DNA of 63,852 bases, the filler included, from Cystobasidiomycetes sp. EMM_F5 (taxonomy: Eukaryota), in assembly GCA_051047955.1 (NCBI GenBank). It is 12 parts of 12 records of this genome, joined end to end, with 100 filler letters (N's around TTAATTAATTAA, not from the genome) between each part and the next. Parts side by side here need not be neighbours in the genome. Positions count along the whole stretch, not along the records: positions 24,778 to 29,960 come from JBPGPT010000090.1; 11 more parts are not named here. The stretch is one strand, 5' to 3'. The notes under the pieces are model-generated. The model was given only the letters and a program-made list of their open reading frames with translations. It was not told where the DNA came from and searched no databases. The translations under genes were made by a program, and so were the position numbers. Below, one piece after another: positions 7,899-46,308 of the stretch (positions within the stretch are counted from its first letter, which is position 1; each line of letters starts with the position of its first letter).

Positions 7899-8090
7899 TC
7901 AGCTGAAGATTTAGAATAAATCTTCATATATAAGAATACATTTTCAGGGCCTTTTTCAGGGGCATTCTTTATTATTAATAAAGAACGGGCCCCTTTGTTG
8001 AATTTGCTGAGGTTATTGTTGAAGTTTATTCAACAAACTCAGCAACATATTCAACAAACTCAGCAACGAAAAACTAGAGCCCTGAAAACT
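7899..8090. repeat. ~190-bp mitochondrial repeat, inverted copy at 10693-10884; its 3' part recurs at the start of contig 55288
   Basis: tcagctgaagatttag...gagccctgaaaact is the near-perfect reverse complement of 10693-10884. Confidence 0.9.
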
Positions 8091-9360
8091 TGTATCTAAA
8101 ATGTGAATATTTACAATATTCAAGGTCCTGATTTTTTTTCAAATAATCACAACTTCTGCTGAGCCTCGCTCAGCAAGCACATGCTTTTTAGTTTGCATCC
8201 CCTTTATGATTATTTTTAAAATCCTCTTCATAAACTTGCAAATACAGTGAAGATACACCCGAATGATTATTTTTCGCATCTTGTTTAACAATCTGCTTTA
8301 TCAAAAATAGTTTGGTGTCTTCACTGTAGGTGTTTTTAACTTGTAGCAAAGATTTTTTTATAAAGCGTTAACTTTAGGTTTATAATTAATAGCACCCTGT
8401 ATATAGGACATCAGAATCTCAACCGTAAAAAGAGGATAAAAAGAGGATAAAAAAGCCTAAAGCGAGTGATTTACCAATACATTACGGTGAAAACTCTTGA
8501 ATATTTTTATAAAGCTTTAGAATAAATATTCACCCGATCCTTTTCATTCGCTGCTTGTTTTCATATTCATTTTTATTGGTTTGTGATTAACCTTTAGGTT
8601 AATCAGGTTGTTGCTGAGTTTGTTGGTGATTAATCTAAAGGTTAATCACAAGTTATCAAGCATCTTCGCAGCTCCGCTGCGAACGAATATTTATAAAATA
8701 AATCTTCGTTCGCTTTAATATTGACCATTGCTGAGGCCTTATCAAGCTCTGCTTGATAAGGCAGCAAGGGTCAATATTCTTGCGAATACGCAAGAATAAC
8801 CTTGATAACTTGTTGAAGTCCCTTCAACAAACTCAGCAAGTTATCAAGCGCCTGAATCTTTATTTTATAAAGATCCAGAAGCTTTATAAAGCAACCATTA
8901 AATCTAAAAAGTAATAAGAATCCGGCGATGCGAATGAAAATAATCGGAACCTATAATCAAATAACAAATATACGTCCTTAAAATTGTCTAATTTTCACAA
9001 CCTGGCACTTTTAAAGGTAAAACATTAAAATTAAATTCACTGTAAATCAGGCAATCGCTACTCGTGAAAAACGGTCTAGAGTATAATACACACAATTTGA
9101 CCTATAGTAATCTTGTTCCCCTAAACGGTATTTAGTAACAATAATCACTCATGTTTCGATTTACTTTTTCATATTCATTTCGATTTACTTTTTCATATTC
9201 ATTTCGATTTATTCTCAAGCTCTGCTTGAGAAGGAATCGAAACATGAAAATAATCGGAACATATAATAAAATAATAAATAGACGTCCTGAAAATTATCCT
9301 CTTTTCACAACCGGTGTTCGCTTTAATATTTACCATTGCTGAGGTCATTGTTTAAGTTAT

Positions 9361-9411
9361 TGCTTTATCAAGCTTATTCGCAGCGGAGCTGCGAATAAGC
9401 TTGATAAAGCA
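9361..9411. repeat. Representative dispersed mitochondrial palindrome (24-bp arms, GGA loop)
   Basis: tgctttatcaagcttattcgcagc-gga-gctgcgaataagcttgataaagca; related TTATCAAGC...GCTTGATAA elements occur throughout both mt contigs. Confidence 0.95.
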
Positions 9412-9587
9412 GCAAAGGTAAAAAGTATTGCGAATGCACATAAAAATCTAGTATTTACGTTGTTTTCTTTATTTTTTTTTTTAATAAAATAAAAAAAGGC
9501 GTCCAGAGATCAACTATTATTAGATAAAGCTGAATTTTTTAGAATTCCATTAATGTAATCTTTTCACAGTACAGCTTAAAATTAAAA

Positions 9588-9659
9588 GCCGATGTCGAAT
9601 ATTGGTTATTTCGTTACTCTCATAAAGTGAATAAAAAGGTTCGATTCCTTTCATCGGCT
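9588..9659 (+). tRNA. trnM: Mitochondrial tRNA, anticodon CAU (Met; could be a modified Ile2)
   Basis: Acceptor gccgatg/catcggc, anticodon arm ttact-ctCATaa-agtga, T arm aaagg-ttcgatt-ccttt. Confidence 0.9.
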
Positions 9660-11062
9660 TGTGTATAACCCAGCATGCTTATAATAACGGTTAATTCCTA
9701 ACTTTTTATTATTATTTATAAAGCATGTTGTTGACGCTTATTGCTTTATCAAGCGGAGCTTGATAAAGCAGCAAAGTCAACAACCTGATTAACATTAAGA
9801 TTAATCACAAACAATGTAATCGGAATAAAAGGAGCTGCGAATGGTTTCGTGGTTGAAATTTTTTCAACAAATAAAAATTATCCTGAGCTGCAAAATAAAG
9901 ACGCCATCAGTAATGTATAGGTAACGGGCGTATTTTTACACTTACAAATGACCAAAGAACCGTAAATATAAAGAGCAGATTGGTCTTTTTATCTGTTCCG
10001 CACTTCTATTATTTAGGCTAAATGATAGAAACCAGCGTGAGGGATTTAAAACCTTTTTTTTATTTGTATTTTTTTTGATTTTTTCTTATTTTTTCTTTTT
10101 TTCCTTAACATACCTATGTTGAAGTATTTCAGTACTGCATTTTTATGTTTTGAGTCATTATTTGGTTCTCAAAATAATCCCTCCAAAATAATCGCAAAAA
10201 GGGCATTGTTGGATGTTGTAGAAGTTATTGCTGGGGCTTTATCAAGCTTATTCGCAGCTCCGCTGCGAATAAGCTTGATAATGCCGCAATAACTTAAACA
10301 ATACCAACCACAAATCTTCATATATAAAAAAACATTAGACTTTAGAAACAACGTTCTGAAGATTGTTTTTATGTTTAGATTTATTAATTATTGATAATGA
10401 ATAAATCGAGTTATAAAGCTTCTGAATATTTATAAAATAAATATTCACATGCTTTATAAGTAAATCTAAATATGCCAAATTTTACCACTTCTGCTGAGCA
10501 AGCACATTAAAAGATCTAAGTAATAATGTTTTTAGATAATCTAAATATGCAAATTTTCACAAATTCTGCTGAGCAAGCACATTAAAAGATCTTTGTAATA
10601 ATGTTTTAGTGTGCATTCCTTTTTTAGGTACCCTAAAAACGGAACCCGGTTGTGAAAATTAGACAAGATTAAGTACGTATATTTATTGTTTGAGTTTTCA
10701 GGGCTCTAGTTTTTCGTTGCTGAGTTTGTTGAATATGTTGCTGAGTTTGTTGAATAAACTTCAACAATAACCTCAGCAAATTCAACAAAGGGGCCCGTTC
10801 TTTATTAATAATAAAGAATGCCCCTGAAAAAGGCCCTGAAAAGGGATTCTTATATATGAAGATTTCTTCTAAATCTTCAGCTGATTCATTTCATTTTCAT
10901 GTTTCGATTTCTTATTACTTTTTAGATTCCTTATCAAGCTTATTCGCTTTAATATTGACCTTTGGTCAATATTCTGGCGAATAAGCTTGATAAGGAGTCT
11001 GAAAATGAAATGGATCAGAAGGGGATGAATTTTGTGAATTCAACTTACCGTAATCCCTTTTT

Positions 11063-12160
11063 TTGTTAACAATAAGTAGAATTAAAAATGAGCAGCAACA
11101 AGTATATGGTATAGCCAATAACATAAACAACACTAAAAATAAAAATTTTAACCCTGATCACCTCGGTATTTTTAGGGATACCTTAAACCAGGCTGTGTTT
11201 ATGAATAAAAAATTTAATTTGTTCGATGCCTCTAAAAGCAAAACCATGCCGTGATTAGCTTACTTTAAAGCATATTTATCTCCATTTAAAGCACTGGTGG
11301 GAACACCAAAAACCAAAATATTACCTAACAAATTTATTGTAATAGTTCCTTATTATAAACCAGAAAGCATAGGGGCACTAACTAATCAAAATATTGTGAT
11401 GCTAGGTAAATCTCTGCATCAGATGACCGGACTTATAACTAAAATAAGTTATAAAGATAATGACCCTTTTATTGAAGATTTTTTTATAAATATTCACGTT
11501 CGCACGAAGAACCTTGATAAAGCAGCAAACGGAATGCGAAAGGGATTTATTGGCCATAAAAAGATTGAGGTGCGGTTGGTTCGACTACGTTATCCTTATT
11601 TAGATAGTTTAATTTTAGCTCAGTACCTAGCATTTAATGCTAATAAATACAATTTTACTCGTGTGCAAGAAACTTTGTTTAATCGTGTATCCATGGTACA
11701 AAGCGGATTTTCCTTAAATGACTTACCTGAATCGTCTTTAGTCGTTGATGTTTCTGATCGCAATCAGAAAGGGACTTTTGGTCCGGATTTAGATAAAAAC
11801 CCAGCTCTTCCCGGCAATAATGGGCAAGAGTCGGATAATAAATTACCGGTAAAACTACTGCCCTCTCTGTTAACGGGAGTAAGATTAGAGTTAGCAGGAC
11901 GGTTAGCCACAGAACGAAGTGTTCCTCGAAAAACGGTTAAAAATAGCTATACAGGTTCTTTAACTGTAAGCAATACTTTGAACTCGTGATTAGACAAAAA
12001 TAAATACGCATCTAAAAATAAAAAGGGTGCTTTTACAGTCAAAGTTTCGCTTGGTAATACGTGCACCCCTCAAAATTTTGACCCTAAAAAGTCTAAGTAC
12101 ATTAAAAACCCCTTATGATCCTTTTTGATTGAAAATCAAAAGGATCAGAACTTAAAATAA
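11063..12160 (+). CDS. rps3: Mitochondrial ribosomal protein S3 (code 4), start uncertain
   Basis: ORFs 11063-11254 and 11297-11989 are in one frame, joined if TGA=Trp, and continue to TAA 12158-12160. Motifs IEVRLVRLRYPYLDSLILAQYLA, LTGVRLELAGRL and KNKKGAFTVKV. Confidence 0.88.
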
Positions 12161-12589
12161 TCGATTTTTATCCGTTAGTATTAAGCTGGATCATAAACAA
12201 TAATAATCAGGCGCTTGTTTTTAGATTTATCTGAAAATAAGCTGCAAATGTGCTTGATGTTTCGATTTACTTTTTCAGATTCCTTATCAAGCATGTGAAT
12301 ATTTTTTTTATAAATATTCAGAAGCTTTATAACTCGATTCCTTATTTCTCCTTTTTAGATTATCTAAAAAAGATAAGGAATCGGAATGAGTATTCACTCT
12401 AGTTTGTGTTATTTTAACCCCCCTCACTTAACTTCACCAACGTTTTTTGTAGCTTATTATTATTATTTATGATCAGCTTTAAAATATTTTGGTTAGATTA
12501 AAACACATTAAATAAAAAATAAATAAAAAATAAAAATAATCGGATCTTTGAATGTATAAGTATCGATGTCAATATATAATATATTATAA

Positions 12590-24777: not shown

Positions 24778-25553
24778 ACCCTAGCAGTGATCCGAACACT
24801 TCTAGTCGCCTCCCCGTACTCTGTTATCCGAAGACAGAGTACTCCTCCCCTTCGTACTTGTATTCACGACACAACTACGAAGGTCTCCTACGCTGATCCG
24901 AACATCGTAGAACCCTGATAGTGATCAGAACACCATCAGCCGACATCCCCGTACTATATCATCCGAAGATATTGTACTTCTTCATCTTCCGTCGTCTTAG
25001 TACTTCTAAGTACGAAGAAACTACGAAAGACTTCTGCTGTGATCCGAACACTGCAGAGCACCGCTAGTAATCCTAATACTATCGGCCGACACCCGAGCAA
25101 GTGATCAGAACACTTGCTTACGTCCAACACCCCTTAGTACTTTGCTTCGTACTACTACTCGTACTACGAAGAAGTACTAAGATACCTTTACTCCTACATC
25201 GATCCTACTCTTCCACCCCAGCTATCCGCCTACGCCTACGCCCATTACCTTCAGCCTACTCTTTTACCCTTGGCTTCGTCAGTACTCCTCAACTTCTAAG
25301 GAGGCATCGTACTACGAAGACAAGTACTAAGCAAAGTACGAAGCTCGTACTTAGGACTTAGCCGCCAGTAGCACTTCCCACACTTCCCTCGACAAGTAGT
25401 CAAGCCTCGTCTGGACATTTGTATAGGAATCAACCGATCCTACGCGTCCCTATCACAAGTACGAAGGCTTAGTACTTTCGTAAGCAAGTACTAAGGCCCT
25501 ACTAAGGCTTACTACGAAGCCGTTAGTAGCTTGTATTTAGGTACCCGCTCACA
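24778..25553. mobile_element. LTR-like segment of an unrelated element inserted into the start of pol
   Basis: The pol frame of the adjacent element breaks at minus-strand TGTGAGCGGG (25553); internal repeats gtgatc(c/a)gaacac and agtactaag; runs to the contig end. Confidence 0.65.
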
Positions 25554-25650
25554 GATGGGAGGAACGAGGATGCAGAAAGAGCTGCGGATATAATGGTGTT
25601 GCAGCGCCCTGAATAGAGGTCTAGCAGATGGCGCTTGATCGCCAGACCCT

Positions 25651-26646
25651 CTAGTTTTCCGAGTCGGAGGCTAAGGCAATTTGGTTGTCACTTGTCAGAG
25701 TCGCCCGAATTTGCTGACCGCGAGACTTGTTGGCGGACCGCGCGGGACATTCTCCGACTTTGTGACCAGAGTTGCCGCAATAGAGACAGAGATTGTTCTC
25801 CATGCGACGCTTGCGTTCTTCAGGCGTAAGGGGTTGGAATCTGCGTTGACGGGTACCGTCGACTTCCATGCTGTCGGAGTTGCCGGCGGGACGAGTCGCG
25901 GTCGTGGCAGAAGGCTGGGTTTGGTGATGCGTGCGGCCGGTGTTGCGGTTGCCTTGAGTCGGTTGGGAGGTGTGACGTTTCTTCTCCTCAGACCTCGCGT
26001 GCACTCGGTTGTCGATGCGCACAGCGACGGCCTGCAAGTCATGGAGGGTAGCGGGGTCTTCATCTCGCAGGGCTAAGGCGTCTTTGACTTCGGACTTGAG
26101 GCCATCGTAGAAGCGGTCGCGGAGAGCGTCATCATTCCAGGCCAAGAAGGAGGCGTACTGGTCGAAGATAGTCTTGTAAGCCGCCGTTGACCCGGTTTGA
26201 TGAAGGTTTTGAAGCTTGGTCGTGTAGGTCCGATGGATGTCCGAGTCGCCTAGTGCTGCGACGAACTCAGTGACGAAGGTGTTGTAGTTGACCATAGATG
26301 CTGGTGCCGGGTTCTGGTTGATGAGGGGTTCTGCCCACGCAAAAGCTCGGCCACGGAGGTAGGAGCATGCGAACATGATGCGTCGCACATCGTCGGTGAA
26401 TGCTTCGGGGTTGGCGCGCATATAGAGATTGACCTGTGAAAGCCACTGGGAGGCAGAGGCGCGGTCCTTGCCGTCAAATTCGGAAGGCTTGCTGATGTGC
26501 TTGAAGAGGCTTCCAGTGTGAACTTGGGCAGTTGCCGGTTGAGTTTGCATGTTGGTAATCATGCCTTGGAGTTGGGCAATTTGGAATTGCAGGTTGTTGT
26601 ACTCTGCCATAGAGATATTGGCGGGAGTGCTGTTCGGGGTATCCAT
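25651..26646 (-). CDS. gag: Ty3/gypsy Gag (sushi/PEG10-like capsid plus CCHC knuckle), element 1 family
   Basis: [44 protein letters not shown]; ends GAA AAC TAG. Confidence 0.93.
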   Translation of the reverse strand: MDTPNSTPANISMAEYNNLQFQIAQLQGMITNMQTQPATAQVHTGSLFKHISKPSEFDGKDRASASQWLSQVNLYMRANPEAFTDDVRRIMFACSYLRGRAFAWAEPLINQNPAPASMVNYNTFVTEFVAALGDSDIHRTYTTKLQNLHQTGSTAAYKTIFDQYASFLAWNDDALRDRFYDGLKSEVKDALALRDEDPATLHDLQAVAVRIDNRVHARSEEKKRHTSQPTQGNRNTGRTHHQTQPSATTATRPAGNSDSMEVDGTRQRRFQPLTPEERKRRMENNLCLYCGNSGHKVGECPARSANKSRGQQIRATLTSDNQIALASDSEN

Positions 26647-27345
26647 CTTGCGATGCTGAGTGCTTAGATTGCCTTTGCTTAGGTTGTACGCTGAGAGTCT
26701 TGGGTTCTGAGGTTGATTGTTGGAGCAGAGCCAAGAGCAGGAGGGTGGAAACGCTGCTTTTTATGCTTAGAGGCGTTGTTCTCGTAGTTTCGAAGACTTG
26801 GGTGGCGAGATTCCAGAAGGTTCGACGGTGGCGAGGTGTGGAAGGTTTTGGAAGGTCGTGGAATGTTCTGGAACTTGTAGGGTGGCGAAAGTTCCCGAAG
26901 ATTCCAGAGGGTTCTATGGTGTTCCAGAGGGTTCTATGAGGGTCCAGAGGGTTTAATGAGGGTCCAGAGGTCGGATTGAGTATTCAGGTTCGCCCCTGAG
27001 TGCTTCTCTACTGAAGCAGGTGCACTTAGTGCGGCCGACCAGGCTACCACGAAGGTAGTTGTATAGTCTCCCTGCCAGTGTGGGGCGAAAAGCGGAGGAA
27101 CGAAGACACTGCAGAGGCTGGAGCGTTTTGCGGCTGGTCTGCCCTAGGAACAGGGCCGCGGAGCACTTCAAGGCCAACACTACTTGATTCGCCTTGCGAA
27201 GAAGAGCTCTGTGCAGTCGGCTGGCTAGGGTACCACTAGCTTTATAACGCCCGCGTCAAGAGATACTCCGAAGGGAGGTGGGAAGTGGCAGGTTGGATAG
27301 GCCGGGAAGGAGGTAGTCGGGTGTCGGAGTGAGTTCAGATCTTAC

Positions 27346-27704
27346 TGTCGGAAGGTGGAATAGAAGGAGGAGCTGAGTAGGCGACAGGCGACTACCAGGC
27401 TGGGGTATAAAGAGGAAGAGGAATGTATTACTGAACTAGACCACCACTAGGGGTTGACTAGGCAAGATCTGAACTGAAGAAAGGAAAGGAGAGATACAAC
27501 AGAAGAGTTATCTTTTATATTACAGGTAGGTGGCGGTGGCTGTGCAGCCTGGAACTTTCCAGAAGCTTCTATGTGGCAAAAGTTCCAGAATGTTCCACAA
27601 GGTTCCACCGGGTTCCAGAACATTCTATGATGACGTAATGTTCTCGAATGTTCCAGAACGTGCCAGAGACTGACGTGAGGGCTCCTTGAGCTCAGTTCGT
27701 GACA
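27346..27704 (-). mobile_element. LTR (359 bp) lying between the pol end of one copy and the gag of the next
   Basis: TGTCACG start directly after the PPT-like CCGGGGGTAC; ends CCGACA; TATAAAA at 27513-27519; followed by PBS 27332-27343. Confidence 0.85.
27552..27658. promoter_or_regulatory. Cluster of perfect heat-shock elements (nGAAn inverted repeats) plus a CRE-like TGACGTAA in U3
   Basis: GAActTTCcaGAAgcTTC 27552-27569; TTCcaGAAtgTTC 27583-27595; TTCcaGAAcaTTC 27613-27625; TTCtcGAAtgTTCcaGAA 27641-27658; TGACGTAA 27631-27638. Confidence 0.75.
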
Positions 27705-27716
27705 GTACCCCCGGTG

Positions 27717-29960
27717 TTAAGCTCGAAGTCCCTGAGAGCGGATGTGCCTTGAGATTCTGCGGTAGCCAGGTTTATTAGGGTAGCGTGTATGGAAATCTAT
27801 GACTATGTCGTCGAAGGATTGAAGGTCGGAGGCAAGAATCCAAGATCTGTCGGCGACAGGGTAGCCTTGCCAGTGGACGAAGTATTCGAGGTGCTGAGGT
27901 CGTCCACGCATCTTAGAATCGAGTATTTCTTCGACAATGTACGCGGTACGGCCATCTTCCGTGATGATTGGATCAGGCGGAGGGTCGACTTGTCGCTCGA
28001 GGTGTCGGTTTGGAACGTATCGCTCAAGAAGGGATACATGGAAGACATTGTGGATCCGCATGGAGGCTGGGATGTCCAATCTGTAGGCGGACTGTCCGAT
28101 CTTCTTGAGAATCTTGAACGGCCCGAGTTTCTTGAAGTCCAACTTGGTGGAGGGTCGTGTAGTCTTCACAAATCGCCTGAGTAGCCACACTTGCTCGTCC
28201 TCCTGGAAGATAGGTGCCTGAGTTCGCTTGCGGTTTGCATAGAAGGCATGTTGCTGGACATTTCGGCTGATGTTGTCTTTGCAAAGCTGGTGCACCTCTT
28301 GTATGCGCCTGAGGCGGGCTTGAGTATCGGGCGTGTCGCTATCTTGGAGCGTTATAGAGAGCCGAGGGTTATAGGCTTGATTGGCGTGGAAGGGTGTCAT
28401 ACCAATGGTAGAATGATGGGTACAGTTGTAACTGAATTCGGCAAGGGGTAGTAGCTGGGACCAATCGTCCTGGAGGTAGTCGCAGAAGATACGGAGATGA
28501 GTCTCGAGGATTTGATTGATCCGTTCTGTCTGACCATCGGACTCTGGATGGAAAGCTGTTGAGAGGTTTGGCTTGACTTGAAGCATGGTGAGGAAGTCGT
28601 GCCACCATTTAGAAGCGAAGGTTGTGCCTCGGTCTGAGACAATGTCGTTTGGAAGACCATGGAGGCGGAATATGTTTTCCATGAACTGGCGAGCGAGGGT
28701 CCCAGCTGTGTCGTTCTTGTTTGCGCGAATGAAGTGTGCTTGCTGGGTGAGTCGATCTACGACCACAAGAACAGCGTCGTAACCTTCGTACGGAGGGAGA
28801 TCAACGATGTGATCCATCGAGAGCGAAAGCCAGGGGCCAGTGGGGACTGGTAGTGGTTGGAGGTAGCCGTATTTGGAATGATGCACGGATTTGCTTCGCT
28901 GACACAAGTCACAGGACTGTATGTACTCATTGATGAAGTCGCGCATCTTGGGCCACCAGAAGTTTCGCTGAACAATCTCGATCGTCTTGGCTTGGCCAGG
29001 GTGTCCAGTCTCGGGGGAGTCATGAGCTTGCTGCAGGATTTTGACTTTGAGGGTTTCGTAGTCGGGGATATAGATAAGGTTCTTGTAGTACAGGAGGTCG
29101 TTGCGCAGGCTGTACGCTTCGATGTCTGCAGGAGCGTCGTCACGATGGTTGTCCGGATCTTGCAGAGCATACAAAACGCCGTGTATGCTGGGGTCAAGGG
29201 GAAGGTGGCGGACAATGATGTCTTTGATGTCGGAGGTAGGCGTATACTGAATGATTGCAGCGAGTATGGGGCGCAGCATGATCTCGGGCTGCGCTTGTGA
29301 TGCTTCTCCCCCCTCTGCATAATCGGGGCGACGCGATAAGGCGTCAGGCTTGCCGCTCTCTTTGCCTGGGCGGTATTTGATTTTATACTGATGGTGATTG
29401 ATTACTTCTGACCATCTCGCTTGGCGCCTGGTGAGCACCTTGCCGGTTTTGAAGTATTCCAGGGCTTGATGGTCGGTAAGGATGGTAAACGGGCGGGGAA
29501 GTCTTCGAGGTAATGTCGCCATATTTTAATAGCTGACACCACTGCAAGGAGTTCTTTATCGTGGATTTCGTAGTTGAGTTCCGCCGGGTTCATCTTGCGT
29601 GACATGAAAGCTACGGGGTGTAGCATTTTGTCGTGGTATTGGGATAGGACGGCGGAGATTGCAAAGTCGGAGGAGTCCGTCTCGATGACAGTCTCTTTGT
29701 CGGGATCGAAATGGCGAAGGATATCAGCGCCTGTGAAGGCGGATTTGATGTGGTTAAATGCTTGACGGGCTGCATCGTCAAATTGATAAGTGGTGTTTTT
29801 CTTGAGGAGGCGTGTCATGGGGACTATGATCCTTGAGTAGCCTTTGATGAAGCGTCGGTAGAAGTTCGCGAAGCCTAAGAATTGTTGTAGTTCGCGAACT
29901 GATGCCGGCTCGGGCCAGGATGTAACAGAGTCGACCTTGTCTTGTGCCATAGCGACACCG
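27717..29960 (-). pseudogene. pol: Ty3/gypsy pol 3' half (RT connection, RNase H, integrase, chromodomain) with a 1-bp frameshift near 29503
   Basis: ORFs 29402-29950 ([18 protein letters not shown]) and 27717-29522 (HHCC, DDE, GPF, chromodomain YIVEEILD...YFVHWQGY) join at HYLE/GLP if one G is restored. Confidence 0.9.
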
Positions 29961-30321
29961 NNNNNNNNNNNNNNNNNNNNNNNNNNNNNNNNNNNNNNNN
30001 NNNNTTAATTAATTAANNNNNNNNNNNNNNNNNNNNNNNNNNNNNNNNNNNNNNNNNNNNGACTGCTGGCGTCGCCTTTTGGGGAAGTAGGGGAAGAGGG
30101 CAATGATGAGGGAATATGGGGCGTGGGGCGTGGGGGCAGGGAGCGTGGGTATATAGAGAATGTGTGGGTATAGGGAGGGGTAGCCTGCTATCGGCATCCC
30201 CTTGGTAGAAAGCAGTCCTATTTATTGTCCGTTAGATGGCTCATCTGCCAAATGATCGAACTTTGCGTGGCGGTCGTGACAGTACCCCCGGGTTCAAGCC
30301 GAACTCCTGAGAGGGGTAGTT

Positions 30322-33300
30322 TTATATTGCTGGTCGAGGTCGCCTGAGATCGGCGAGGGTGTACCTCTGATTACTGGGAAGATGTATGCGGCCATAGCCA
30401 GGTTTGTCGGGGTATTTACGGTGGAAGCTTAGTACTAAAGCATCGTCATTTTTAAGATCCTCTGCGGCTCCCCAGCTATTGTCCTGTGAAGAGTATCCCT
30501 TCCATTTGTAGAAGTACTCCAGAACATCACCGCGTCGCATACGTGAATCCAGGATGGCTTCCGGGATGTATCGTTCCTCGAAGAAGTCCGCGACAGGATC
30601 TGGTCGTACAGGTGTCATTCGTTCAGGATGCACGTTGTGACGATACTTCTCCAAAAGAGAGACGTGGAAAACAGGATGACACTTCATAGTGTTCGGAAGC
30701 TTGAGGCGGAAACTTGATATTCCCACTGGTCGCTCGATTTCGAACGGTCCCAGCTTCTTTGCATCAAGCTTGTCCATTGGGCGATCCGTCCGGATTTGCA
30801 GTTTGCCGGAACGTGGATTATATCTTCGCAAAAGTACCATGTCTCCGATCTTAAAAGGTGGAGGCGGCATGCGATGTTTGTTTGCCCAGAGGACGTGTTG
30901 TTGCAAGGAGTGATTTATCATTTCACTTGCATTTTCATGTGCTCGATGTATCTTGGCGAGTCTTCGATCTACGTCCGGTACTCTGGAGTCTTCAGCGGTA
31001 AGAGTCATGCGAGGGTGGTAGCCAAAGTTGGCGTAGAAGGGAGACATCCCGATGGAAGAGTGGTATGTCGAGTTGTATGCGAATTCTGCTATGGGTAATA
31101 GCTCAGACCAGTCGGTCATGAGGTAATCACAGTAGTTCCGCAGGAACAGCTCGACACTCTGGTTGACTCTTTCCGTTTGCCCATCGGTTTCAGGATGAAA
31201 TGCGGTAGACAGGGCTGGCTTGACTTTCAAGAGTCCAAGTAGTTCGGTCCACCATTGTGAAGCGAAGGTCTGACCACGATCGGACACAATATCATTCGGC
31301 AGACCGTGTAGTCGCCAGATGTTATCCAGATACTGACGAGCTAGAGTAGCAGCGGTGTCCGTTGTCTTTGCGCTGATGAAATGAGCCATCTTTGTTAAGC
31401 GATCGACTACTACTAGTATAGCGTCGTATCCGCTCGAGCGAGGTAGGTTAATGATGTGATCCATCGACAGGGACAGCCAAGGTCCTTCTGGCACTGGTAG
31501 AGGTTGGAGTAGGCCGTAGGGACGATGGTGATCGGATTTGTTGCGCTGACAAGTATCACACGAACGTATGTACTCATTTATGAACTCTCGCATGTTGGGC
31601 CAATAGTAATTGCGCTGAACGTATTCCAATGTCTTTGCTTGGCCAGGATGGTTGACGTCCATTACATCGTGAGCATTCTGCAAGATGCGTACTTTGATTG
31701 TCTCGTAATTGGGAACGTAGATGAGGCCGCGAATAAGCAGGACACCCTGAACTACGCCTGTTCCCATCGTAAAGTAATTTGGAACGGAGTCACGATTGGC
31801 ACCTTCAGTCTCCAGTATATCGATGTAATCGTCTACAGCTGGATCGTGTCGCTGAAATCGTTTCAGGTCTGGGATGAGTTCGGATGTGGAGTTGCGAACC
31901 CGAAAAGTTGCAGAGAGCGCTTGTGGGCGGAGTAGGATGAGCGGTTCTTCCTCACTGGCTTTACCCCCCGCGGCAAAATCGGGACGACGACTGAGTGCGT
32001 CTGGTTTTCCAGCTTTATCGCCGGATCGGTATTTGATTATGTACTTGTGATGATTTATTACTTCCGACCAACGAGCTTGTCGCCTGGTCAACGTTTTCGA
32101 CGTTTGGAAGTACTGTAATGCCTGATGGTCTGACAGGATTATGAAAGGCTCTTTGAGTCCTTCGAGGTAATGTCGCCATATTTTAATGGATTCGACTATT
32201 GCCAGTAATTCTTTATCGTGTATTTCGTAATTCCTTTCTGCGGGATTCATCTTGCGAGACATGAAAGCCACTGGATACAGCGTTTTGTCGTGGTACTGAG
32301 ACAGTACACCGGATATTGCATAGTCTGAGGCATCGGTTTCTATGACAGTGGACAGAGAAGGATCGAAGTGTCGGAGGAAGTCGGCTGTAGTGAAAGCCGC
32401 TTTTATACTATTGAACGCTTCTCTGGCCGATACGTCGAAGATAGATTTGGTGTCTTTCTTAAGTAGTCTCGTCAAGGGTGAGATGATGCGTGAATATCCT
32501 TGGATGAACCTTCGATAGAAGTTGGCGAAGCCTGAGAATTGCTGTAGCTCGCGCACTCTTGTTGGTTCAGGCCAGGATAATACGGCATCGACCTTATTCT
32601 GGGCCATACTAACGCCATCAGAGGCGATAATGAAGCCTAAGAATTCTGTCTTGGTAACTGAGAATTCGCATTTCTCGGCTTTTGCATACAAGTTGTTGTT
32701 GGTGAGGCGTTGCAAGACTTTGCGAACGTCTTCTATATGCGAGTCAGGAGAGTCGGAGAATATGAGTATATCATCCAGATATACCAAGACGGTGTGGTCC
32801 AGCATGTCACGGAAGACATCATTCATGAAATGCTGAAACACAGCTGGAGCATTGGTGAGTCCAAACGGCATGACCATGCATTCGAAATGGCCGTATCTCG
32901 TGCGAAAGGCTGTCTTCCATTCGTCGCCTTCTTTCACACGGACCAAATTGTAGGCCCCTCGAAGATCGAGCTTAGTGAACATCTTGGCTCTTCTAAGTCG
33001 ATCCAGAGCTTCAGGGATCAGGGGTAACGGATACCGATTCTTTATCGTGATATTATTCAATGCACGATAATCCACACAGAGACGTAAGGATCCGTCTTTC
33101 TTCTTGACAAAGAGAATAGGCGATCCGGCAGGAGAGCGCGAAGCTCGTATGAAGCCTTTGGACAGGTTGTCCTCTAGCCATTCCGATAGAGCCTTGAGTT
33201 CAAGCTCTGACAGGGAGTAAAGAGGTCCATAAGGAGGCGTCTTGCCTTCCTCGAGCTCGATACTCAGATCATATGGTCTATGGGGAGGCAGAGCATCTGC

Positions 33301-34080
33301 TTTCGTTTTAGAGAACGCGGGGAGCAGATCATGATACTCCGAAGGTACAGTCGTTTTGAGAGTGGTGATGTAATCTTCGGGGTCTGGGAGTTCTTCTTCA
33401 GAGGATGGTGGCTGAAAAGCTCCATCTGTGACTGCACCGAGCTGCATGCGAGCAGCAGTCTGATAGAACAGAGTGCCCATGGAAGAGCCAGGTTCATTTG
33501 CAGCTTCGGCTATGGCTGCAGAGTCCAGGAAAGCAATATCATGCATTGATGACATGGGAACGAATGGAAGTCCGCGTATCTCCACAGGACGATCGTCGGT
33601 GTCGCGAGACCTGATGGTGAGGACTTTCCGTTTCCAGTCGATATCAGGATTGTGAGCACGCAGCCAAGGCATGCCCAGCACAACAGGATAGATTCCAAGC
33701 TGAGTGACGTCCAAATTGATCAGGTAAGGGCGTCCACCCGTCTGAATCTTCAGAGAACAGGAGTGGGTAATGTTCCCAGAGGCGATGGGTCTGCCATCGA
33801 TGACGTAGAGAGCCGAAGGCGCGTCCTTCTGGACTGCGTGAAGACCATAACGCTCGACGAAGCGTTGGTCAATGAAATCAGATGATGCGCCGCTATCTAG
33901 CAGGGCATAAGCAGGGAGTGCGACAACGGAGTTGTCAGGCAGGATTTGATGCATCTTGAGTGCTATCACGAAGTGTGTTGTATCAGGAGCAGTGGCAGCA
34001 CTGGCGTGAAGGGTTTGCAGGCGCCACTCAGGCTTGGTGTCCGACGCAGGGCGCATGGCGTTCGGACATTCTAGTTTTCC
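30322..34080 (-). CDS. pol: Pol (protease LLDSGA, RT YLDD, RNase H, integrase, chromodomain), in -1 frame relative to gag
   Basis: Uninterrupted 1294-codon ORF with PR-RT-RH-IN-CHD order. Confidence 0.97.
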
Positions 34081-35099
34081 GAGGTGTTTTTGCGAACAGG
34101 TTTGCCAACCGGCGCGGACAATGTTGCCTGCAACCGTTGACCTGGCTTCTGACGCTTTGCCGGACAGTCGTTTGCGCGATGACCAGCCTTGCCGCAGTAG
34201 AGGCACAAGTTATTGGTCATGCGATGCTGACGTTCAGCAGGCGTGAGAGGCTTATAACGACGCTCGGAAGTTGCATCTATGTCCATGGTCATTGGCATGG
34301 ACATCGAGACCTGTCGGGTGTAGTTCTGAGAGCGGGGTTCCGGACGAGATGGTTTACGATGCGCATGGGACGACGAGTGACGCGAGCCGGTGTTTGTAGG
34401 CTTGATAAAGCCTCCTCGCGACTCTTGCTTACGTTCATAGAGACGGTTGTCGATTCGTACGCATAAGTCCTGGAACTCGCGGAAGTCTTGAGGCTCTTCG
34501 ACGACCAAGGCAAGAGCATCCTTGACGTCTGCCTTGAGACCATCGTAGAAGTAGGTCTTGAGACCGGCTTCGTTGATTGACAAGTACTGAGCGATACTAT
34601 CGAACTCAGTGCGGAAGTTGGTGCAGGAAGTGGTTTGACGAAGAGACTTGAGCCGCTTTGTCATAGTGTGCGAACGGTCTGGGTCTCCCAAAGCTCTTTC
34701 CATTTGGTTCGAGAAGTACTCGAAGTCCAACATGAGTCGCTCATTGGGTCTTGCAAGATACGGTTCGATCCATGCGAAGGCTCGTCCCCTGAGATAGGTG
34801 GCCACAAAAGAAATTTTGGCGGTGTCCGAGGCAAACAGGTGTATATTCCCAGCGATGAACAGTCGAACCTGGGATAGGAAGTCCGAGCAACCATTCTTGT
34901 CCTTGCCATCATATTCGTCTGGTCTCTTGAATAATTTGCCCAACCCAGATGAAGACGTAAAAGCAGCAGCTGCGTTGGCAGTGGCTGCGGCTGTTCTTGC
35001 GTCTTGTAATGCTGCTTCAGCAATTTGATGTGCTTGTAGAGCATGATTGGCGATGACTTCGGGACTTGGTTGACTCTGCGGGACTTGCTGAGTGTCCAT
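34071..35099 (-). CDS. gag: Gag with CCHC zinc knuckle
   Basis: 342 aa; [33 protein letters not shown]. Confidence 0.96.
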
Positions 35100-35730
35100 G
35101 TTTTAGGACTTGCTTGCGAGGACGAAGTCCGAGTTCTGTTCTAGTTGTCGGGCTACACGCCCACCCGGGGGAAAAGTACTAAGAGTACTTAGAGATTTAC
35201 NNNNNNNNNNNNNNNNNNNNNNNNNNNNNNNNNNNNNNNNNNNNTTAATTAATTAANNNNNNNNNNNNNNNNNNNNNNNNNNNNNNNNNNNNNNNNNNNN
35301 GGCGAGTCGCTACGGACGAGTTGCAGTTGCACGACTTGCAAAAGGCAGTCGCAGCTCGTCCAGTGCACGCTCCGAGCAGCCCGCCGACGCAGCTCAGCCC
35401 GGCGCCTGGGTGTCCAATACCAGATATCGAACATCAAACATCAAACATCAGCCCCGACATGGCTTCATACCCACCGCAACTGGCGCCCACTAGCCAGCAT
35501 GCTCCCAGCGCCTCCGAGCAGCGGTATCGACAGCAGTGCGCCCATGTCTTAATGAATCTAATTAATAGCAGCACCACACCGAGTACAGTGCTTCAATGAA
35601 GTTCAAAATGGAAACACTAATTCATGAACGATAGGACATTCTGGATAATTCAGACCGATGCCGTATAGCAACCTGGTTATAGCGCGTACCAGCAGGCTTC
35701 ACAGTCCGCCTGTCGTGTTCTTGCAGGGTT

Positions 35731-40423: not shown

Positions 40424-40644
40424 NNNNNNNNNNNNNNNNNNNNNNNNNNNNNNNNNNNNNNNNNNNNTTAATTAATTAANNNNNNNNNNNNNNNNNNNNN
40501 NNNNNNNNNNNNNNNNNNNNNNNCTTGCACCGACCTCGTCCGTAAACCCCTAAGTACTCCTACGTACTTTCCCCCGGGGGGGCCGGTAGCCCGACAACTA
40601 GAACAGAACTCGGACTTTGTCCTCGCAAGTCCTTAAAGAAAACC

Positions 40645-41694
40645 ATGGACACTCAGCAACCTCAAGTACCTCAAGCCAGTCCGGAATAAGTCATCGCCAA
40701 CCATGCTATGGAAGCACATCAAATTGCTGAAGCAGCACTACAAGACGCAAGAACAGCCGCAGCCACTGCCAACGCAGCTGCAGCTTTTACGACTTCATCT
40801 GGCTTGGGCCGACTCTTCAAGAAACCAGATGAATATGATGGCAAAGACAAGAATGCCTGCTCGGACTTTCTTTCGCAAGTCCGACTATTCATCGCAGGGA
40901 ATTCACACCTATTCCCTTCCGACACCGCCAAAATCACCTTCGTGGCCACCTATCTCCGAGGACGAGCCTTCGCATGGATCGAACCGTACCTCAACAAACC
41001 TGGCGAGCAGCTCATGCTCGATTTCGACTACTTCGCTCAGCAAATGGAAAGAGCTCTGGGCGACCCGGACCGCACGCACACCATGACCAAACGCCTTAAG
41101 TCACTCCGCCAAACCGCCTCGTGCACCAACTTCCGCACGGAATTCGATAGCATCGCTCAGTACCTATCGATCAACGAAGCTGGACTCAAGACATACTTCT
41201 ACGATGGACTCAAGCCAGAAGTCAAAGATGCTCTCGCTTTGGTCGTCGAAGAACCTCAAGACTTCAAGGAATTTCAAGATCTCTGCGTCCGGATCGACAA
41301 CCGGCTCTACGAGCGCAAGCAAGAATCTCGTGGAGGTTTTATCAAGCCTGGATTCTCTTCTGGGTCCAAACCATCCCACTCCTCCTCCACTTCCCACCGT
41401 AAACCGTCAAGACCCGAATATCGACCATCAACATACACTCGTCAAGTCTCCATGCCGATGACAATGGACATCGATGCTACTTCCACGCGTCGATTCAAGC
41501 CATTGACACCCGCCGAACGTCAGCATAGGATGGCAAACAATCTATGCCTCTATTGCGGTAAAGCAGGTCATCGAGCGACCGATTGCCCAGCCAAGAGGGC
41601 AAAACCGGGTCAACCATCTGGTCAACGACTCCAAGCAACACTTTCTGCTCCTCTGGACAAGAACAACCGGAACAAGACGAAGCCGGAAAACTAG
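40645..41694 (+). CDS. gag: Gag with an in-frame TAA at codon 15 (40687-40689); open from ATG 40708
   Basis: [21 protein letters not shown] aligns to element 2 MDTQQ...[28 protein letters not shown]. Confidence 0.92.
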
Positions 41695-44600
41695 AATGTC
41701 CGACTGCAACGCGCCTCGCGTCGGACCTGGAACCTCAGTGGCGCCTATCAACTCTCCAAGCCAGTGCTGCCACTGCCTCAAGAAACACCACACACTTCGT
41801 CATTGCACTCAAGATGCATCAAATCCTGCCTGACAACAACGCCGTTGCCCTTCCCGCCTATGCCCTAATCGATAGTGGGGCATCTTCCGACTTCATCGAC
41901 CGACGCTTCGTGGAGCGTTACGGTCTTCAAGCTGTCTTAAAGGATAATCCCTCAGCACTCTACGTCATCGATGGACGACCCATCGCTTCTGGAAACATCA
42001 CCCACTCCTGCAATGTCAAGATCACAACTGGTGGACGCCCCTACCCCATCAATCTGGACGTCACCCAACTTGGAATCTATCCTGTCGTTCTGGGCATGCC
42101 ATGGCTGCGTGCTCACAACCCCAAGATCGATTGGAAAAGGAAGATCCTTACAATCGAATCATCCGACTCAGAAGGAACGCCTATCGAAATCCGAGCACTC
42201 CCTTTCGTTCCTACTTCTACCTCTGCACCTCTGGACATTGCATTCCTGGACTCAGCCGCCCTCGAAGCCGCTGCAAGTCAATCTGGCTCTACCGTGGGCA
42301 CCCTGTTCTATCATGCTTCCGACTGCATGGAATTTGGTGCTGTCACCGATGGTGCTTTCCAACCACCATCCTCCGAAGAAGACCTCCCCGATCCCGAAGA
42401 CTACATCACAACCCTCAAGACGACTGTACCGTCGGAATATCACGACATGCTATCCGCATTCTCCAAGACCAAGGCCGACACTCTTCCGCCTCATCGTCCC
42501 TACGATTTGAGCATCGAACTGGAGGAAGGCAAATCTCCACCCTATGGACCTCTCTACTCTCTCTCGGAACTGGAACTCAAGGCTCTCTCGGAATGGCTAG
42601 AAGACAATCTATCCAAAGGCTTCATCCGAGATTCTCCTGCTGGTTCACCCATCCTTTTCGTCAAAAAGAAGGATGGATCCCTCCGCCTCTGTGTGGATTA
42701 TCGCGCTCTCAACAACATCACCATCAAGAATCGATATCCACTCCCCCTCATCCCTGAAGCCCTCGACCGCTTGCGACGAGCAAAAATGTTCACCAAGCTG
42801 GATCTTCGCGGCGCTTACAATCTGGTCCGCGTCAAGGAAGGCGACGAATGGAAAACCGCTTTCCGCACACGATACGGACACTTCGAGTGCCTGGTCATGC
42901 CGTTTGGCCTTACAAATGCCCCGGCAGTGTTCCAACACTTCATGAACGATGTGTTCCGCGACATGCTAGACCATACGGTACTAGTCTACCTGGACGACAT
43001 CCTCATCTTCTCGGACTCCCCGGAACAACATCCCGAAGACGTTCGCAAAGTCTTGCAACGCCTCTCCGACAACAATCTCTACGCCAAAGCGGAGAAATGC
43101 GAATTCTCCGTCACCAAGACCGAGTTCTTGGGCTTCATCATTGCCGCCGATGGCGTCAGTATGGCTCAGAACAAAGTCGACTCTGTCTTATCCTGGCCTG
43201 AACCGACGAGAGTTCGCGAGCTACAACAATTTCTCGGCTTCGCCAACTTCTACCGTCGCTTCATCCAAGGATACTCCCGGATCATCTCTCCTCTTACAAG
43301 ACTCCTTAAGAAGGACACCAAATACCATTTCGATGAACCTGCAAGAGAAGCGTTCAATCGTATTAAAGCGGCTTTCACGACAGCCGACTTCCTCCGACAC
43401 TTCGACCCTTCTCTTCCAACCGTCATCGAAACCGACGCTTCGGACTACGCTATATCTGGCGTCCTATCACAATATCACGATAAAACCCTGCATCCCGTTG
43501 CGTTCATGTCTCGCAAGATGAACCCCGCCGAACGCAATTACGAAATTCACGACAAGGAACTTCTCGCTATCGTGGAATCTATCAAGATCTGGCGACACTA
43601 TCTGGAAGGTCTCAAAGAACCTTTCGTCATTCTATCGGATCATCAAGCACTTCAATATTTCCAAACCTCGAAAACCTTGACCAGACGCCAAGCAAGATGG
43701 TCTGAGGTCATCAATCACCACAAATACATCATCAAATACCGATCTGGCGAAAAATCTGGCAAACCGGATGCTCTCAGTCGTCGTCCCGATTTTGCAGCGG
43801 GGAGTAAAGCTAGCGAAGAAGAACCACTCGTACTTTTGCGCCCGCAAAGCCTCTCTGCAACATTCAGGGTACGAAATTCGACATCAGAGCTCATCCCGGA
43901 CATCAAGACATTCCAGCGGCTGGATCCCGCTGTCGACGAATACATAGAAACTCTGGAGACCGAAGGAGCCAATCGTGACGACGTACCAGAAGCCTTCACA
44001 ATGGGGACTGGAGTCGTCAAAGGCATACTACTCATTCGTGGACTCATTTACGTCCCAAACTATGAAACCATCAAAGTTCGCGTCCTGCAAAACGCACACG
44101 ATGCTATGGACGTCAATCACCCTGGACAGGCCAAGACTCTGGAATACGTTCAACGGAACTACTACTGGCCACACATGCGAGAGTTCATCAACGAGTACAT
44201 CCGCTCGTGTGATGTCTGCCAACGCAACAAAGCCGACCATCATCGACCCTACGGACTACTGCAACCTCTCCCAGTACCCGAAGGTCCCTGGCTTTCACTT
44301 TCTATGGATCACATCATCGGACTCCCACGCTCCCACGGCTATGATGCTATCCTAGTTGTCGTGGATCGCCTCACCAAAATGGCACACTTCATTCCCGCCA
44401 AAACTACCGACACCGCCAACACACTTGCACGCCAATACCTGGATCACATCTGGCGCGCACATGGACTCCCAAACGACATCGTCTCCGATCGAGGCCCAAC
44501 CTTTGCCTCCGAGTGGTGGACCGAATTCCTCAAGCTCCTCAAAGTCAAACCGGCACTCTCCACTTCCTTCCATCCCGAAACCGACGGTCAGACAGAGAGA

Positions 44601-45446
44601 GTCAACCAAACTGTTGAATTCTTCCTGCGCAACTACTGTGAATATTTGATGACCGATTGGTCGGAACTCCTCCCCATCGCCGAGTTCTCCTACAACTCTA
44701 CCCACCACTCCACCATCGGCATGTCACCCTTCTACGCCAACTACGGATACCACCCTCGCATGACCCTCACCGCTGAGGACTCATCCGTACCCGACGTGGA
44801 TCGACGCCTGGCAAAAATCCGTCGCGCTCACGAGAACGCTGGCGAGATGATACACCACGCACATCAACAACACATCCTCTGGGCGAACAAGCATCGAATG
44901 CCAGCCCCACCCTTCAAGACTGGCGACCTCGTACTTCTCAGAAGGTACAATCCCCGTTCTGGCAAGCTTCAAATCCGCACGGACCGCCCAATGGACAAAC
45001 TGGACGCGAAGAAACTTGGTCCCTTCGAAATCACCCGACCTGTTGGACAATCAAGTTTCCGCCTGGATCTACCACCCACTATGAAGATCCATCCGGTCTT
45101 CCACGTATCTCTTCTCGAGAAATATCGGCCGAACGTACATCCTGAAAGGATGGTACCTCTTCGCCCTGATCCTGTCGCAGAACTCCCTGAAGGTACATAC
45201 CTCGTCGAAGGGATAATGGATTCTCGAATCCACCATGGCGAACTGGAATATCTCTACAAATGGAAAGACTACCCATCATCCGACAACTCCTGGGGTCTCG
45301 CTTCCGACCTCCGCAACAACGACTCTCTGGTCATCGACTTCCATCGCCGACATCCGGATCGCCCTGGCTACGAACGTATCCATCTACCCGCCAAGCAACG
45401 CTTCAATCTGGCTCAACTCCCTCGTGTCGCAAGACGTGCCGTCTGA
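41685..45446 (+). CDS. pol: Pol (PR-RT-RH-IN-chromodomain), -1 frame relative to gag
   Basis: LIDSGA, YLDD, ETDASD, HHCC/DDE, GPF and YLVEGIMD...YLYKWKDY; 2-aa deletion (IRDSP vs IRASRSP) relative to element 2. Confidence 0.97.
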
Positions 45447-46308
45447 CCTACCCCTCTCAGGAGTTCGGTTTGAACCCGGGGGTACTGTCACGCACACCAA
45501 AAACTCGATCACTTGCAAAGGGTCAAGCCGGCCGTCTCTCNNNNNNNNNNNNNNNNNNNNNNNNNNNNNNNNNNNNNNNNNNNNTTAATTAATTAANNNN
45601 NNNNNNNNNNNNNNNNNNNNNNNNNNNNNNNNNNNNNNNNAACGCCCACTGACATAACATTCGGCGCAGGGCGATGAAGTGTAATTTAGTGCTCAAGGCT
45701 GTCAAAGAGTAACGCATGACAAGGTGTACTATTTTCTAGATTTCGGCACTGGACAAACGCATCGAAGACTTGTGATCATCGTCATTATGCCTTTTCACTG
45801 ACCGCAAGTCCGAATGGCGCAAACGTCAGAGCTTGAGCACACTTCCAGGCCACTGCAACATTTTCACCGTCAGATGGCTGATTGCCGAAACGCTATTGTG
45901 GAGCAGCGAGTGTGTTTGTGATGCCTGTACCCTTGCTCAATACTTGTACATTCCGGCACGCAAATGGTTAGTAAACAGCCTTAGAGAACGTTGTCAGACA
46001 ATCTGGGTAAGCTCTCGCTCGCATTGAAACGGCAATTAAGGATTCAGAAACGAGCTACATTTTCAACGATGTCTCAGCCCAGGCCATCTTCAACTGAATT
46101 GACCCAGTCCGATGTGGACGGCGCTGAACCTGCGCTTAACCGAACATACTTGACTCAGCAATACGACGGTCAGATGGCCCTGACCTTGCTGGATCCGCTC
46201 CACATTCTTGCGCGGCTGTCATACATGTGTGCCTCTCGGTACAGCTCACAACGTTTCACTTCCCTAGATTTTCTCTTCAGCCTTTCAGTTTGTCACAGCC
46301 GATTTGCC

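What the first reader, a model, noticed from the sequence alone, without database searches (positions are those of the whole stretch)
26758..27678. Chromovirus with two separate heat-shock-element clusters: LTR promoter plus a probable internal promoter in front of gag
Seen: U3 of LTR 27346-27704 has four perfect 3-4 unit nGAAn arrays (27552-27569, 27583-27595, 27613-27625, 27641-27658) and TGACGT motifs (27631, 27671) upstream of TATAAAA. About 700 nt further on, inside the ~690-nt leader, a second cluster appears: GAAagTTCccGAAgaTTC 26887-26904, GAAtgTTCtgGAA 26861-26873 and TTCcaGAAggTTC 26811-26823. It is interleaved with three GGTGGCGA motifs and followed by CATAAAAA (26758-26765, minus) about 110 nt before the gag ATG. 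Elements 2 and 3 have leaders under 50 nt with no such module, and the solo LTR has no HSEs. Established: Hsf1 binds three or more inverted nGAAn units; HSE-driven LTRs are known (Arabidopsis ONSEN). Inference: a stress-induced element with two transcripts, an LTR-initiated self-priming genomic RNA and an internally initiated PBS-less mRNA for Gag/Gag-Pol. I do not know of this arrangement being described in fungal chromoviruses.
Basis: partly seen in the sequence, partly recalled or inferred. Interest (0 to 1): 0.8.

Follow-up and report, generated by a model that had tools for sequence, protein, structure and literature searches.

The report
Yeast retrotransposon with duplicated heat-shock promoter
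A jumping gene in a yeast-like fungus carries a strong heat-shock switch in its normal promoter and what looks like an old second copy of that promoter just before its capsid gene, which may let it make protein-coding RNA separately from the RNA it copies.

Summary
The motifs are real. All 10 perfect three-unit heat-shock elements (HSEs) in the window lie in two clusters: U3 of a self-priming chromovirus LTR (27704-27346) and its 699-nt leader. The leader cluster resembles the element's own U3 (45 of 58 bases). Its CATAAAA box sits 44 nt before a C|A step, the same spacing as TATA to start in the LTR. The box and downstream bases are kept in a sister element with only 35 of 89 synonymous sites identical. 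Both clusters copy an HSE+GCCAC pairing found in host HSP70 and HSP90 promoters. Best reading: a heat-inducible LTR plus an old, retained internal promoter giving a primer-less gag(-pol) mRNA (about 0.55). No RNA evidence exists. Against it, the long RNA has no upstream ATG, and the sister's perfect HSEs were not seen. A downstream primer-less start is already known for Tf2 (PMC5341516), and HSE-driven LTRs are known in plants and flatworms. A dedicated second HSE promoter in the leader was not found in print. This copy is broken.

The parts
27717..29960 (-). 3' part of pol: end of RT, RNase H (reading frame broken near 29500), integrase, SH3-like module, chromodomain
   Evidence: Pfam RT_RNaseH split over two ORFs; Integrase_H2C2, rve, SH3_Tf2-1, Chromo; RT continues on contig C63
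27705..27712 (-). short purine tract and spacer before the LTR
   Evidence: GGGGGTAC then TG at 27704
27346..27704 (-). LTR, 359 nt, TGTCA...CGACA
   Evidence: solo copy on C220 differing at 6 of 359 bases, with 5-nt target duplication; C252 and C67 carry its two ends flanked by one 5-nt duplication
27552..27658 (-). U3 heat-shock cluster: four perfect arrays, five GAA units in 10-nt phase, two TGACGT (27631, 27671)
27529..27545 (-). GCACAGCCAC (matches Cryptococcus Crz1 motif 1) followed by a second GCCAC
   Evidence: motif from PMC5380312 passages
27513..27519 (-). LTR TATA box, 44 nt before the inferred start
27462..27475 (-). self-primer; 27475 is the inferred start of the genomic RNA
   Evidence: pairs over 14 nt (one G-U) with 27345-27332; fold z -2.9, 1 of 200 shuffles as stable
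27332..27345 (-). primer-binding site of self-priming type, directly after the LTR
26647..27345 (-). 699-nt leader with no ATG, no canonical branch point and no LTR termini
26902..26970 (-). 20-nt tandem repeat (3.5 copies) carrying step-type GAA units; one more unit in run X1
26801..26939 (-). leader heat-shock cluster: three perfect arrays and three GCCACC; 26939-26882 matches U3 27630-27573 at 45 of 58 bases without gaps
26758..26769 (-). TATA-like box TAAGCATAAAAA; 11 nt identical in sister element L076
26719..26737 (-). pyrimidine stretch and predicted internal start at about 26721
   Evidence: conserved in L076; 44 nt from the box here, 45 in L076; the start itself is inferred
25651..26646 (-). 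gag, 331 aa, open, with a CCHC knuckle; GGAAAAC at 25660-25654 is a probable -1 frameshift site into pol
   Evidence: Pfam Retrotrans_gag, Ty3_capsid; alignment; overlapping open frame; the frameshift is inferred
24778..25553 (+). insert of another repeat family that interrupts the start of pol; cut by the contig end
   Evidence: its end is shared with C117; run X7 continues differently at 25562

Best explanation
This is a self-priming, chromodomain-bearing Ty3/gypsy retrotransposon of a basidiomycete yeast whose U3 has become a strong Hsf1-type promoter. In its lineage the usually short leader grew to about 700 nt by taking in a copy of the U3 enhancer with a TATA-like box, and that module has been kept. 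Shown: the motifs, the self-priming duplex, the likeness of the two clusters, and conservation of the box. Inferred: on heat or proteotoxic stress Hsf1, with a GCCAC-binding partner, fires both promoters. The LTR start (27475) gives the full-length RNA, whose first 14 nt fold back to prime reverse transcription. The internal start (about 26721) gives a short-leader RNA without primer or binding site, which cannot be copied and supplies Gag and, by frameshift, Gag-Pol.
For: HSE clusters are far beyond chance, and the host encodes HSF-type DNA-binding domains. HSE and GCCAC lie within 35 nt in 3 of 9 chaperone-family upstream regions (cytosolic HSP70, mitochondrial HSP70, HSP90), in 0 of 14 proteasome and in 0 of 8 CCT upstream regions. 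The composite pattern has 8 genome matches: 5 in this family, 1 at HSP90, 2 elsewhere; control 5. Sister element L076 (gag 183 of 320 aa, fourfold sites 35 of 89 identical) keeps the box and downstream bases: score 53, against a maximum of 42 in 2000 shuffles and 34 among 69 other loci. Box-to-initiator spacing is 44 in the LTR, 44 in the leader, 45 in L076 and 47 in the sister LTR on C216. In run X1, 0 of 10 changes hit 60 leader motif bases (P 0.07). In the LTR, 0 of 16 listed changes hit 76 motif bases (P 0.02). Of 22 relatives with a detectable self-primer, 0 have an HSE or TATA in the leader (22-284 nt), so the module is derived. Tf2 provides a precedent for a downstream start.
Against: No transcript or binding data. 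There is no ATG in the 829 nt between the LTR start and gag (dinucleotide shuffles P 0.011; 710 nt above the box P 0.021), as expected if the long RNA is itself scanned and translated, so a second mRNA is not required. L076 has no perfect three-unit HSE in the 227 nt held, only one two-unit site and four GCCAC, so heat control of the internal module is not shown to be conserved. Conservation rests on a single relative. The more diverged run X7 laid nothing on the leader (a hole proves nothing either way). HSE units alone are not significantly spared by changes (P 0.13 in the LTR, 0.29 in the leader). HSP60 and HSP110 lack the GCCAC pairing. CATAAAA is a weak TATA variant. In Tf2, heat favours the LTR start rather than the downstream one.
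Confidence: 0.55

Rival explanations
1. The leader cluster is a downstream enhancer that boosts the one LTR promoter; only full-length RNA is made, and it serves as both mRNA and genome.
For: There is no upstream ATG in 829 nt. The cluster is a copy of U3 enhancer sequence with a variable tandem repeat. Leader enhancers are known in other LTR elements (recalled: Drosophila copia, Ty1).
Against: It does not explain why a TATA-like box, a pyrimidine stretch and a C|A step are kept at LTR spacing in a relative near synonymous saturation.
Confidence: 0.22
2. The internal start is real but is a basal or restraining one, as in Tf2: it yields primer-less RNA without stress, and heat shifts initiation to the LTR. 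The leader HSEs matter little.
For: Tf2 behaves this way (PMC5341516). The box and GCCAC are conserved in L076, but perfect HSEs were not seen there.
Against: Three perfect arrays lie 46 nt above the box, and all are intact in run X1.
Confidence: 0.13
3. The cluster is a functionless relic of a partial U3 duplication or of a nested LTR. The conserved bases near gag are an RNA signal (packaging) rather than a promoter.
For: It is similar to own U3. The short leader of sister C216 shows a faint likeness to the stretch after the box (P 0.04-0.1). This copy is broken and under no current selection.
Against: There are no LTR termini, purine tract or second self-primer in the leader. The 11-nt box is conserved at 39% synonymous identity. 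The pre-gag RNA does not fold better than shuffles (z +1.0).
Confidence: 0.08
4. The leader is an intron: GTAAG right after the LTR is a splice donor, and splicing removes the primer-binding site.
For: GTAAG at 27345 and several CAG before the ATG.
Against: There is no CTRAY branch point in the leader. GTAAG is part of the self-priming duplex. Sister C216 has GC at this place.
Confidence: 0.02

Closest known systems
Schizosaccharomyces pombe Tf2 alternative start sites (PMC5341516; abstract, passages and first part of the Discussion read)
   Same: Self-priming fungal Ty3/gypsy element with an LTR start and a downstream start just before the ATG that gives RNA unable to prime reverse transcription; responds to heat.
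   Different: In Tf2 the choice is set by a nucleosome placed by Fun30 remodellers, the downstream starts are dispersed, and heat favours the LTR start. Here a 699-nt leader holds its own HSE arrays and TATA-like box, apparently copied from U3.
HSE-driven LTRs: Arabidopsis ONSEN; Macrostomum Mag, CsRN1 and Gmr1 families (PMC12801592; abstract and passages read)
   Same: One to four canonical HSEs in the LTR promoter; heat induction shown there by RNA-seq and HSE mutation.
   Different: These hosts are plants and animals, and the HSEs reported lie in the LTR. Here induction is untested and a second cluster lies outside the LTR.
Cryptococcus TCN3 and TCN12 (PMC12810828, PMC9942834; passages read)
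   Same: Basidiomycete LTR elements that move at 37 C and have putative HSEs in the LTR.
   Different: TCN12 has one imperfect step-type site and TCN3 two putative sites. The 2026 paper says activation through the host heat-shock machinery remains undescribed in fungi. This LTR has four perfect arrays plus step arrays.
Subgenomic RNAs of LTR elements: Ty1i/p22 (PMC8458377) and spliced gag RNA of plant Ty1/copia (PMC5580714); search listing and abstract starts only
   Same: A second, shorter RNA beside the genomic RNA.
   Different: Ty1i starts inside GAG and makes a restriction factor; copia uses splicing (title and recall). Here the predicted start is upstream of an intact gag.

Membership tests
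Chromovirus (Ty3/gypsy, Metaviridae) | pol order RT-RNase H-integrase, with a separate gag | tested here: met
   Pfam domains in that order; RT on overlapping contig C63
Chromovirus (Ty3/gypsy, Metaviridae) | chromodomain at the integrase C-terminus | tested here: met
   PF00385 E 2e-9 at residues 529-581, after SH3_Tf2-1
Chromovirus (Ty3/gypsy, Metaviridae) | TG...CA LTR, purine tract, 5-nt target duplication | tested here: met
   duplications read from other copies of the LTR
Chromovirus (Ty3/gypsy, Metaviridae) | placement in a named clade (Tcn1, Tf1, Maggy) by RT phylogeny | not tested
   no reference RT set fetched; nearest named integrase hits are Microbotryum
Tf1-type self-priming elements | primer-binding site complementary to the RNA 5' end inside the LTR | tested here: met
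   14-nt duplex 27475-27462 with 27345-27332
Tf1-type self-priming elements | cleavage of the self-primer and priming of cDNA | not testable with these tools
   needs RNA or cDNA data
HSE-driven LTR retrotransposons (ONSEN-like) | canonical HSEs upstream of the LTR TATA | tested here: met
HSE-driven LTR retrotransposons (ONSEN-like) | heat induction that depends on HSF and the HSEs | not testable with these tools
   no RNA of this organism could be laid
Tf2-type alternative start sites | capped start between the primer-binding site and the ATG | tested here: inconclusive
   sequence signature and conservation only
Rpn4/PACE regulon (motif recalled) | GGTGGC motif upstream of host proteasome genes | tested here: not met
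   motif present in 3 of 14 proteasome upstream regions, two of them over 1400 nt away; not enriched
Cryptococcus Crz1 response element | [G/A]CACAGC[C/A]AC | tested here: inconclusive
   one exact match in U3 (27545-27536), none in the leader; host Crz1 targets not examined
Nested or relic second LTR | LTR termini, purine tract, own self-primer | tested here: not met
   none in the leader beyond one CGACA at 27326

The most novel reading that the evidence does not exclude
A lineage of self-priming fungal chromoviruses duplicated its heat-shock promoter into the leader and now runs two Hsf1-driven promoters in tandem. One makes the genome, whose capped end is tied up in the priming duplex; the other makes a dedicated Gag/Gag-Pol mRNA. 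Both copy the host's own HSE+GCCAC chaperone-promoter grammar. This would be an element-encoded division of genome and mRNA roles, and direct use of the heat-shock factor by a fungal transposon.
Probability: 0.4. Interest if true: 0.72.

Novelty: new variant of a known kind. Interest (0 to 1): 0.55.

Why it matters
A 2026 paper (PMC12810828, passage read) states that heat activation of transposons through host heat-shock machinery remains undescribed in fungi, and the Cryptococcus candidates have only weak sites. This 359-nt LTR has four perfect arrays and the same motif pairing as the host's HSP70 and HSP90 promoters, so it is a direct reporter test of that question. If the internal start is real, it also shows one way a self-priming element can separate translation from the RNA whose 5' end is consumed as primer. 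It would be a strong compact heat-inducible promoter for basidiomycete yeasts as well.

Tried and rejected
RNA evidence: no RNA holder listed. The one RNA run laid (X11, another organism, about 6% read) gave 0 reads, which is no test.

Viral contigs: the gag search found no relative. The box pattern gave 10 matches, none with gag in the locus, taken as chance.

Rpn4/PACE reading of GGTGGCGA: dropped, because host proteasome upstream regions lack it.

Intron reading: dropped. A structured RNA element in the leader: no support (z +0.98 and +1.02). A nested LTR remnant: no termini; the first 341 nt after the primer-binding site match nothing else fetched. Likeness of the short C216 leader to the pre-gag stretch is too weak to use.

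HSP20 search: no match. The sigma-70 scan does not apply to a eukaryote. Earlier findings of the scan: none returned. The gag tree is the quick tree only. The whole genome was not available as a file, so genome-wide counts come from pattern searches.

Full report
Setting. The window is 12 short contigs joined by N-linkers, from an 18.3-Mb genome in 253 contigs. It includes rDNA and mitochondrial pieces. The host is probably a Pucciniomycotina yeast: the nearest named integrase hits are Microbotryum, and the ITS resembles Cystobasidiomycetes by my recall only. The finding lies on contig 24778-29960 (C244). On the minus strand it reads: end of pol with chromodomain, purine tract, LTR, leader, gag, about 100 nt of pol, then a foreign insert. 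Pol before the LTR means a collapsed repeat or a tandem. C252 and C67 carry the two LTR ends, flanked by one 5-nt duplication inside another element's RT. The LTR-leader join is independently seen in runs X1 and X2. No laid contig bridges the leader to gag, but relative L076 does so by homology. This copy is broken by the insert at the start of pol and by a frame break in RNase H.

Observation. All quoted motifs are where stated. The two clusters hold 10 of 10 perfect three-unit HSE matches in the window, and 0 of 2000 shuffles reach the counts. The genome has 136 such matches (control 188). The four-unit TTC-first pattern occurs at 3 places in the genome, all copies of this LTR (control 4). 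The LTR is 359 nt. Its start site is fixed at 27475 by a 14-nt duplex with the bases right after the LTR, the mark of Tf1-type self-priming.

The leader cluster looks like a copy of U3. U3 27630-27573 and leader 26939-26882 agree at 45 of 58 bases without gaps, in the same orientation, each with five GAA units at 10-nt phase followed by GCCAC. The alignment score is 75. With all GAA, TTC and GCCAC held fixed and the rest shuffled, the best of 1000 is 65, and 8 other HSE-rich U3 regions score at most 48 against the leader. One unrelated U3 (L122) reaches 68 against this U3, so motif content alone can come close. I put duplication at about 0.65 and convergence at the rest. The leader has no LTR termini, purine tract or second self-primer. 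Its 20-nt repeat has one more unit in run X1.

The pre-gag box is old and conserved. The metagenome scan kept the best 80 of 499 confirmed loci. The nearest, L076, is sister to this element in a quick gag tree (SH-aLRT 99), with 183 of 320 residues and 35 of 89 fourfold sites identical. It keeps TAAGCATAAAA and the pyrimidine stretch after it: score 53, against a maximum of 42 in 2000 shuffles and 34 among 69 other loci. The distance from box to C|A step is 44 nt here and 45 in L076. From TATA to the self-primer start it is 44 in this LTR and 47 in the sister LTR on C216, whereas seven distant AT-rich LTRs show 32-33. This predicts an internal start near 26721. The choice of that C|A step is mine and is not measured. 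L076 holds only 227 nt upstream of the ATG, with four GCCAC and one two-unit HSE but no perfect array.

The module is derived. One search examined 67 of the 80 metagenome loci (13 with little upstream DNA left out) and 8 own-genome loci. 7 metagenome loci had no in-frame ATG and gave no row. A self-primer was called in 22 relatives. Their leaders are 22-284 nt, 0 of 22 have an HSE or TATA in the leader, and 7 of 22 have perfect HSEs in U3. Some U3 regions are cut short, a few calls may be chance, and many loci are near-duplicates, so these are not independent counts. HSE-bearing LTRs therefore recur in this group, but a second cluster in the leader was seen only here.

Host grammar. The host encodes HSF-type domains. 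In 1500-nt windows upstream of the most 5' Pfam match, an HSE pair lies within 35 nt of GCCAC in 3 of 9 chaperone-family genes (cytosolic HSP70, mitochondrial HSP70, HSP90), in 0 of 14 proteasome genes and in 0 of 8 CCT genes. The gene labels are my reading of the translations. One Cpn60-domain hit on C2 and the second HSP90 hit on C68, whose promoter lay outside the locus, were left out. The composite pattern has 8 genome matches: 5 in this family, 1 at HSP90, 2 elsewhere (control 5). The GCCAC factor is unknown. The Rpn4 idea failed. U3 has one exact match to the Cryptococcus Crz1 motif 1, and the leader has none.

Variation among copies. In X1, 0 of 10 changes in 26729-26990 hit 60 motif bases (P 0.07). 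In the LTR, 0 of 16 distinct listed changes (C220 and X7; 7 of X7's 19 were not shown) hit 76 motif bases (P 0.02). For HSE units alone, P is 0.29 and 0.13. This is suggestive only.

Against a dedicated mRNA. The 829 nt from the LTR start to the gag ATG hold no ATG (P 0.011 in dinucleotide shuffles). That fits a long RNA that is scanned and translated, so the internal RNA may add to Gag supply rather than being the only source. Nothing here shows a transcript, heat induction or binding.

Comparison. Tf2 of S. pombe already has a downstream, primer-less start just before the ATG, and heat shifts initiation to the LTR (PMC5341516: abstract, passages, first part of the Discussion). HSE-driven LTRs are validated in ONSEN and Macrostomum (PMC12801592: abstract and passages). 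They are only putative in Cryptococcus TCN3 and TCN12 (PMC12810828, PMC9942834: passages). PMC2864245 (passages) describes Tcn1-like elements, and the passages returned do not mention an internal promoter. I found no report of a second HSE promoter in a retrotransposon leader in the searches. These cover only open-licence PMC papers and bioRxiv, and no supplements were read.

Verdict. The feature is real. It is a chromovirus with a strongly HSE-laden LTR and a derived, conserved promoter-like module before gag. An active internal promoter under heat control is my best reading (0.55); a downstream enhancer (0.22), a basal Tf2-like start (0.13), a relic (0.08) and an intron (0.02) are the rivals. 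It is a new variant of known kinds; interest 0.55.

Noticed in passing
window linkers at 6698, 13084, 19234, 24678, 29961, 35201, 40424, 45541, 50402, 55188, 59706: The 113-nt 'repeat' family is the N-linker joining 12 unrelated contigs; neighbours across linkers are not genomic neighbours.
   Followed up: yes
L156, L061, L075 (G000 C243, C79, C221): Host HSP90, cytosolic HSP70 and mitochondrial HSP70 upstream regions pair an HSE with GCCAC within 25 nt; HSP60 and HSP110 have an HSE pair only. Possibly an undescribed co-motif of the heat-shock regulon in this lineage.
   Followed up: partly
L083, L091, L092, L094, L096, L108, L122, L129: Distant AT-rich self-priming elements from metagenomes also carry perfect HSE arrays just above the LTR TATA (32-33 nt from the start in the seven measured); HSE gain looks recurrent in this group.
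   Followed up: partly
L003 and L004 (G000 C252, C67): An LTR of this family, or the whole element, sits inside the RT gene of another chromovirus, with a 5-nt target duplication.
   Followed up: partly
L212 and L025 (G000 C216): A sister family shares the first 11 nt of the self-primer and the core promoter layout, but has no HSEs and a 67-nt leader.
   Followed up: partly
window 30061-35200 and 40524-45540: Elements 2 and 3 are related chromoviruses with open 1295- and 1294-codon pol frames; element 3 has a stop 14 codons after its first gag ATG.
   Followed up: no
L027 (G000 C2:552811-553668): A gag-like open frame of 421 codons (31% identity) on a large contig, with no LTR signal noticed upstream; possibly a domesticated gag.
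   Followed up: no
window 6798-13083 and 55288-59705: AT-rich, probably mitochondrial contigs with many palindromic repeats, two tRNAs and a VAR1-type ribosomal protein ORF (11255-11989).
   Followed up: no
window 13184-19233: rDNA unit with 5S rRNA in the spacer on the same strand as 18S, and 54-nt and 21-nt spacer repeats.
   Followed up: no
proteasome upstream regions, L034-L060: ACTGTAC occurs in 7 of 14 proteasome-gene upstream windows; may be a regulon motif or an intron signal.
   Followed up: no
window 46309-47331 and 48578-49918: A TRI12-like MFS transporter fragment and a C2H2 zinc-finger ORF lie on one contig.
   Followed up: no
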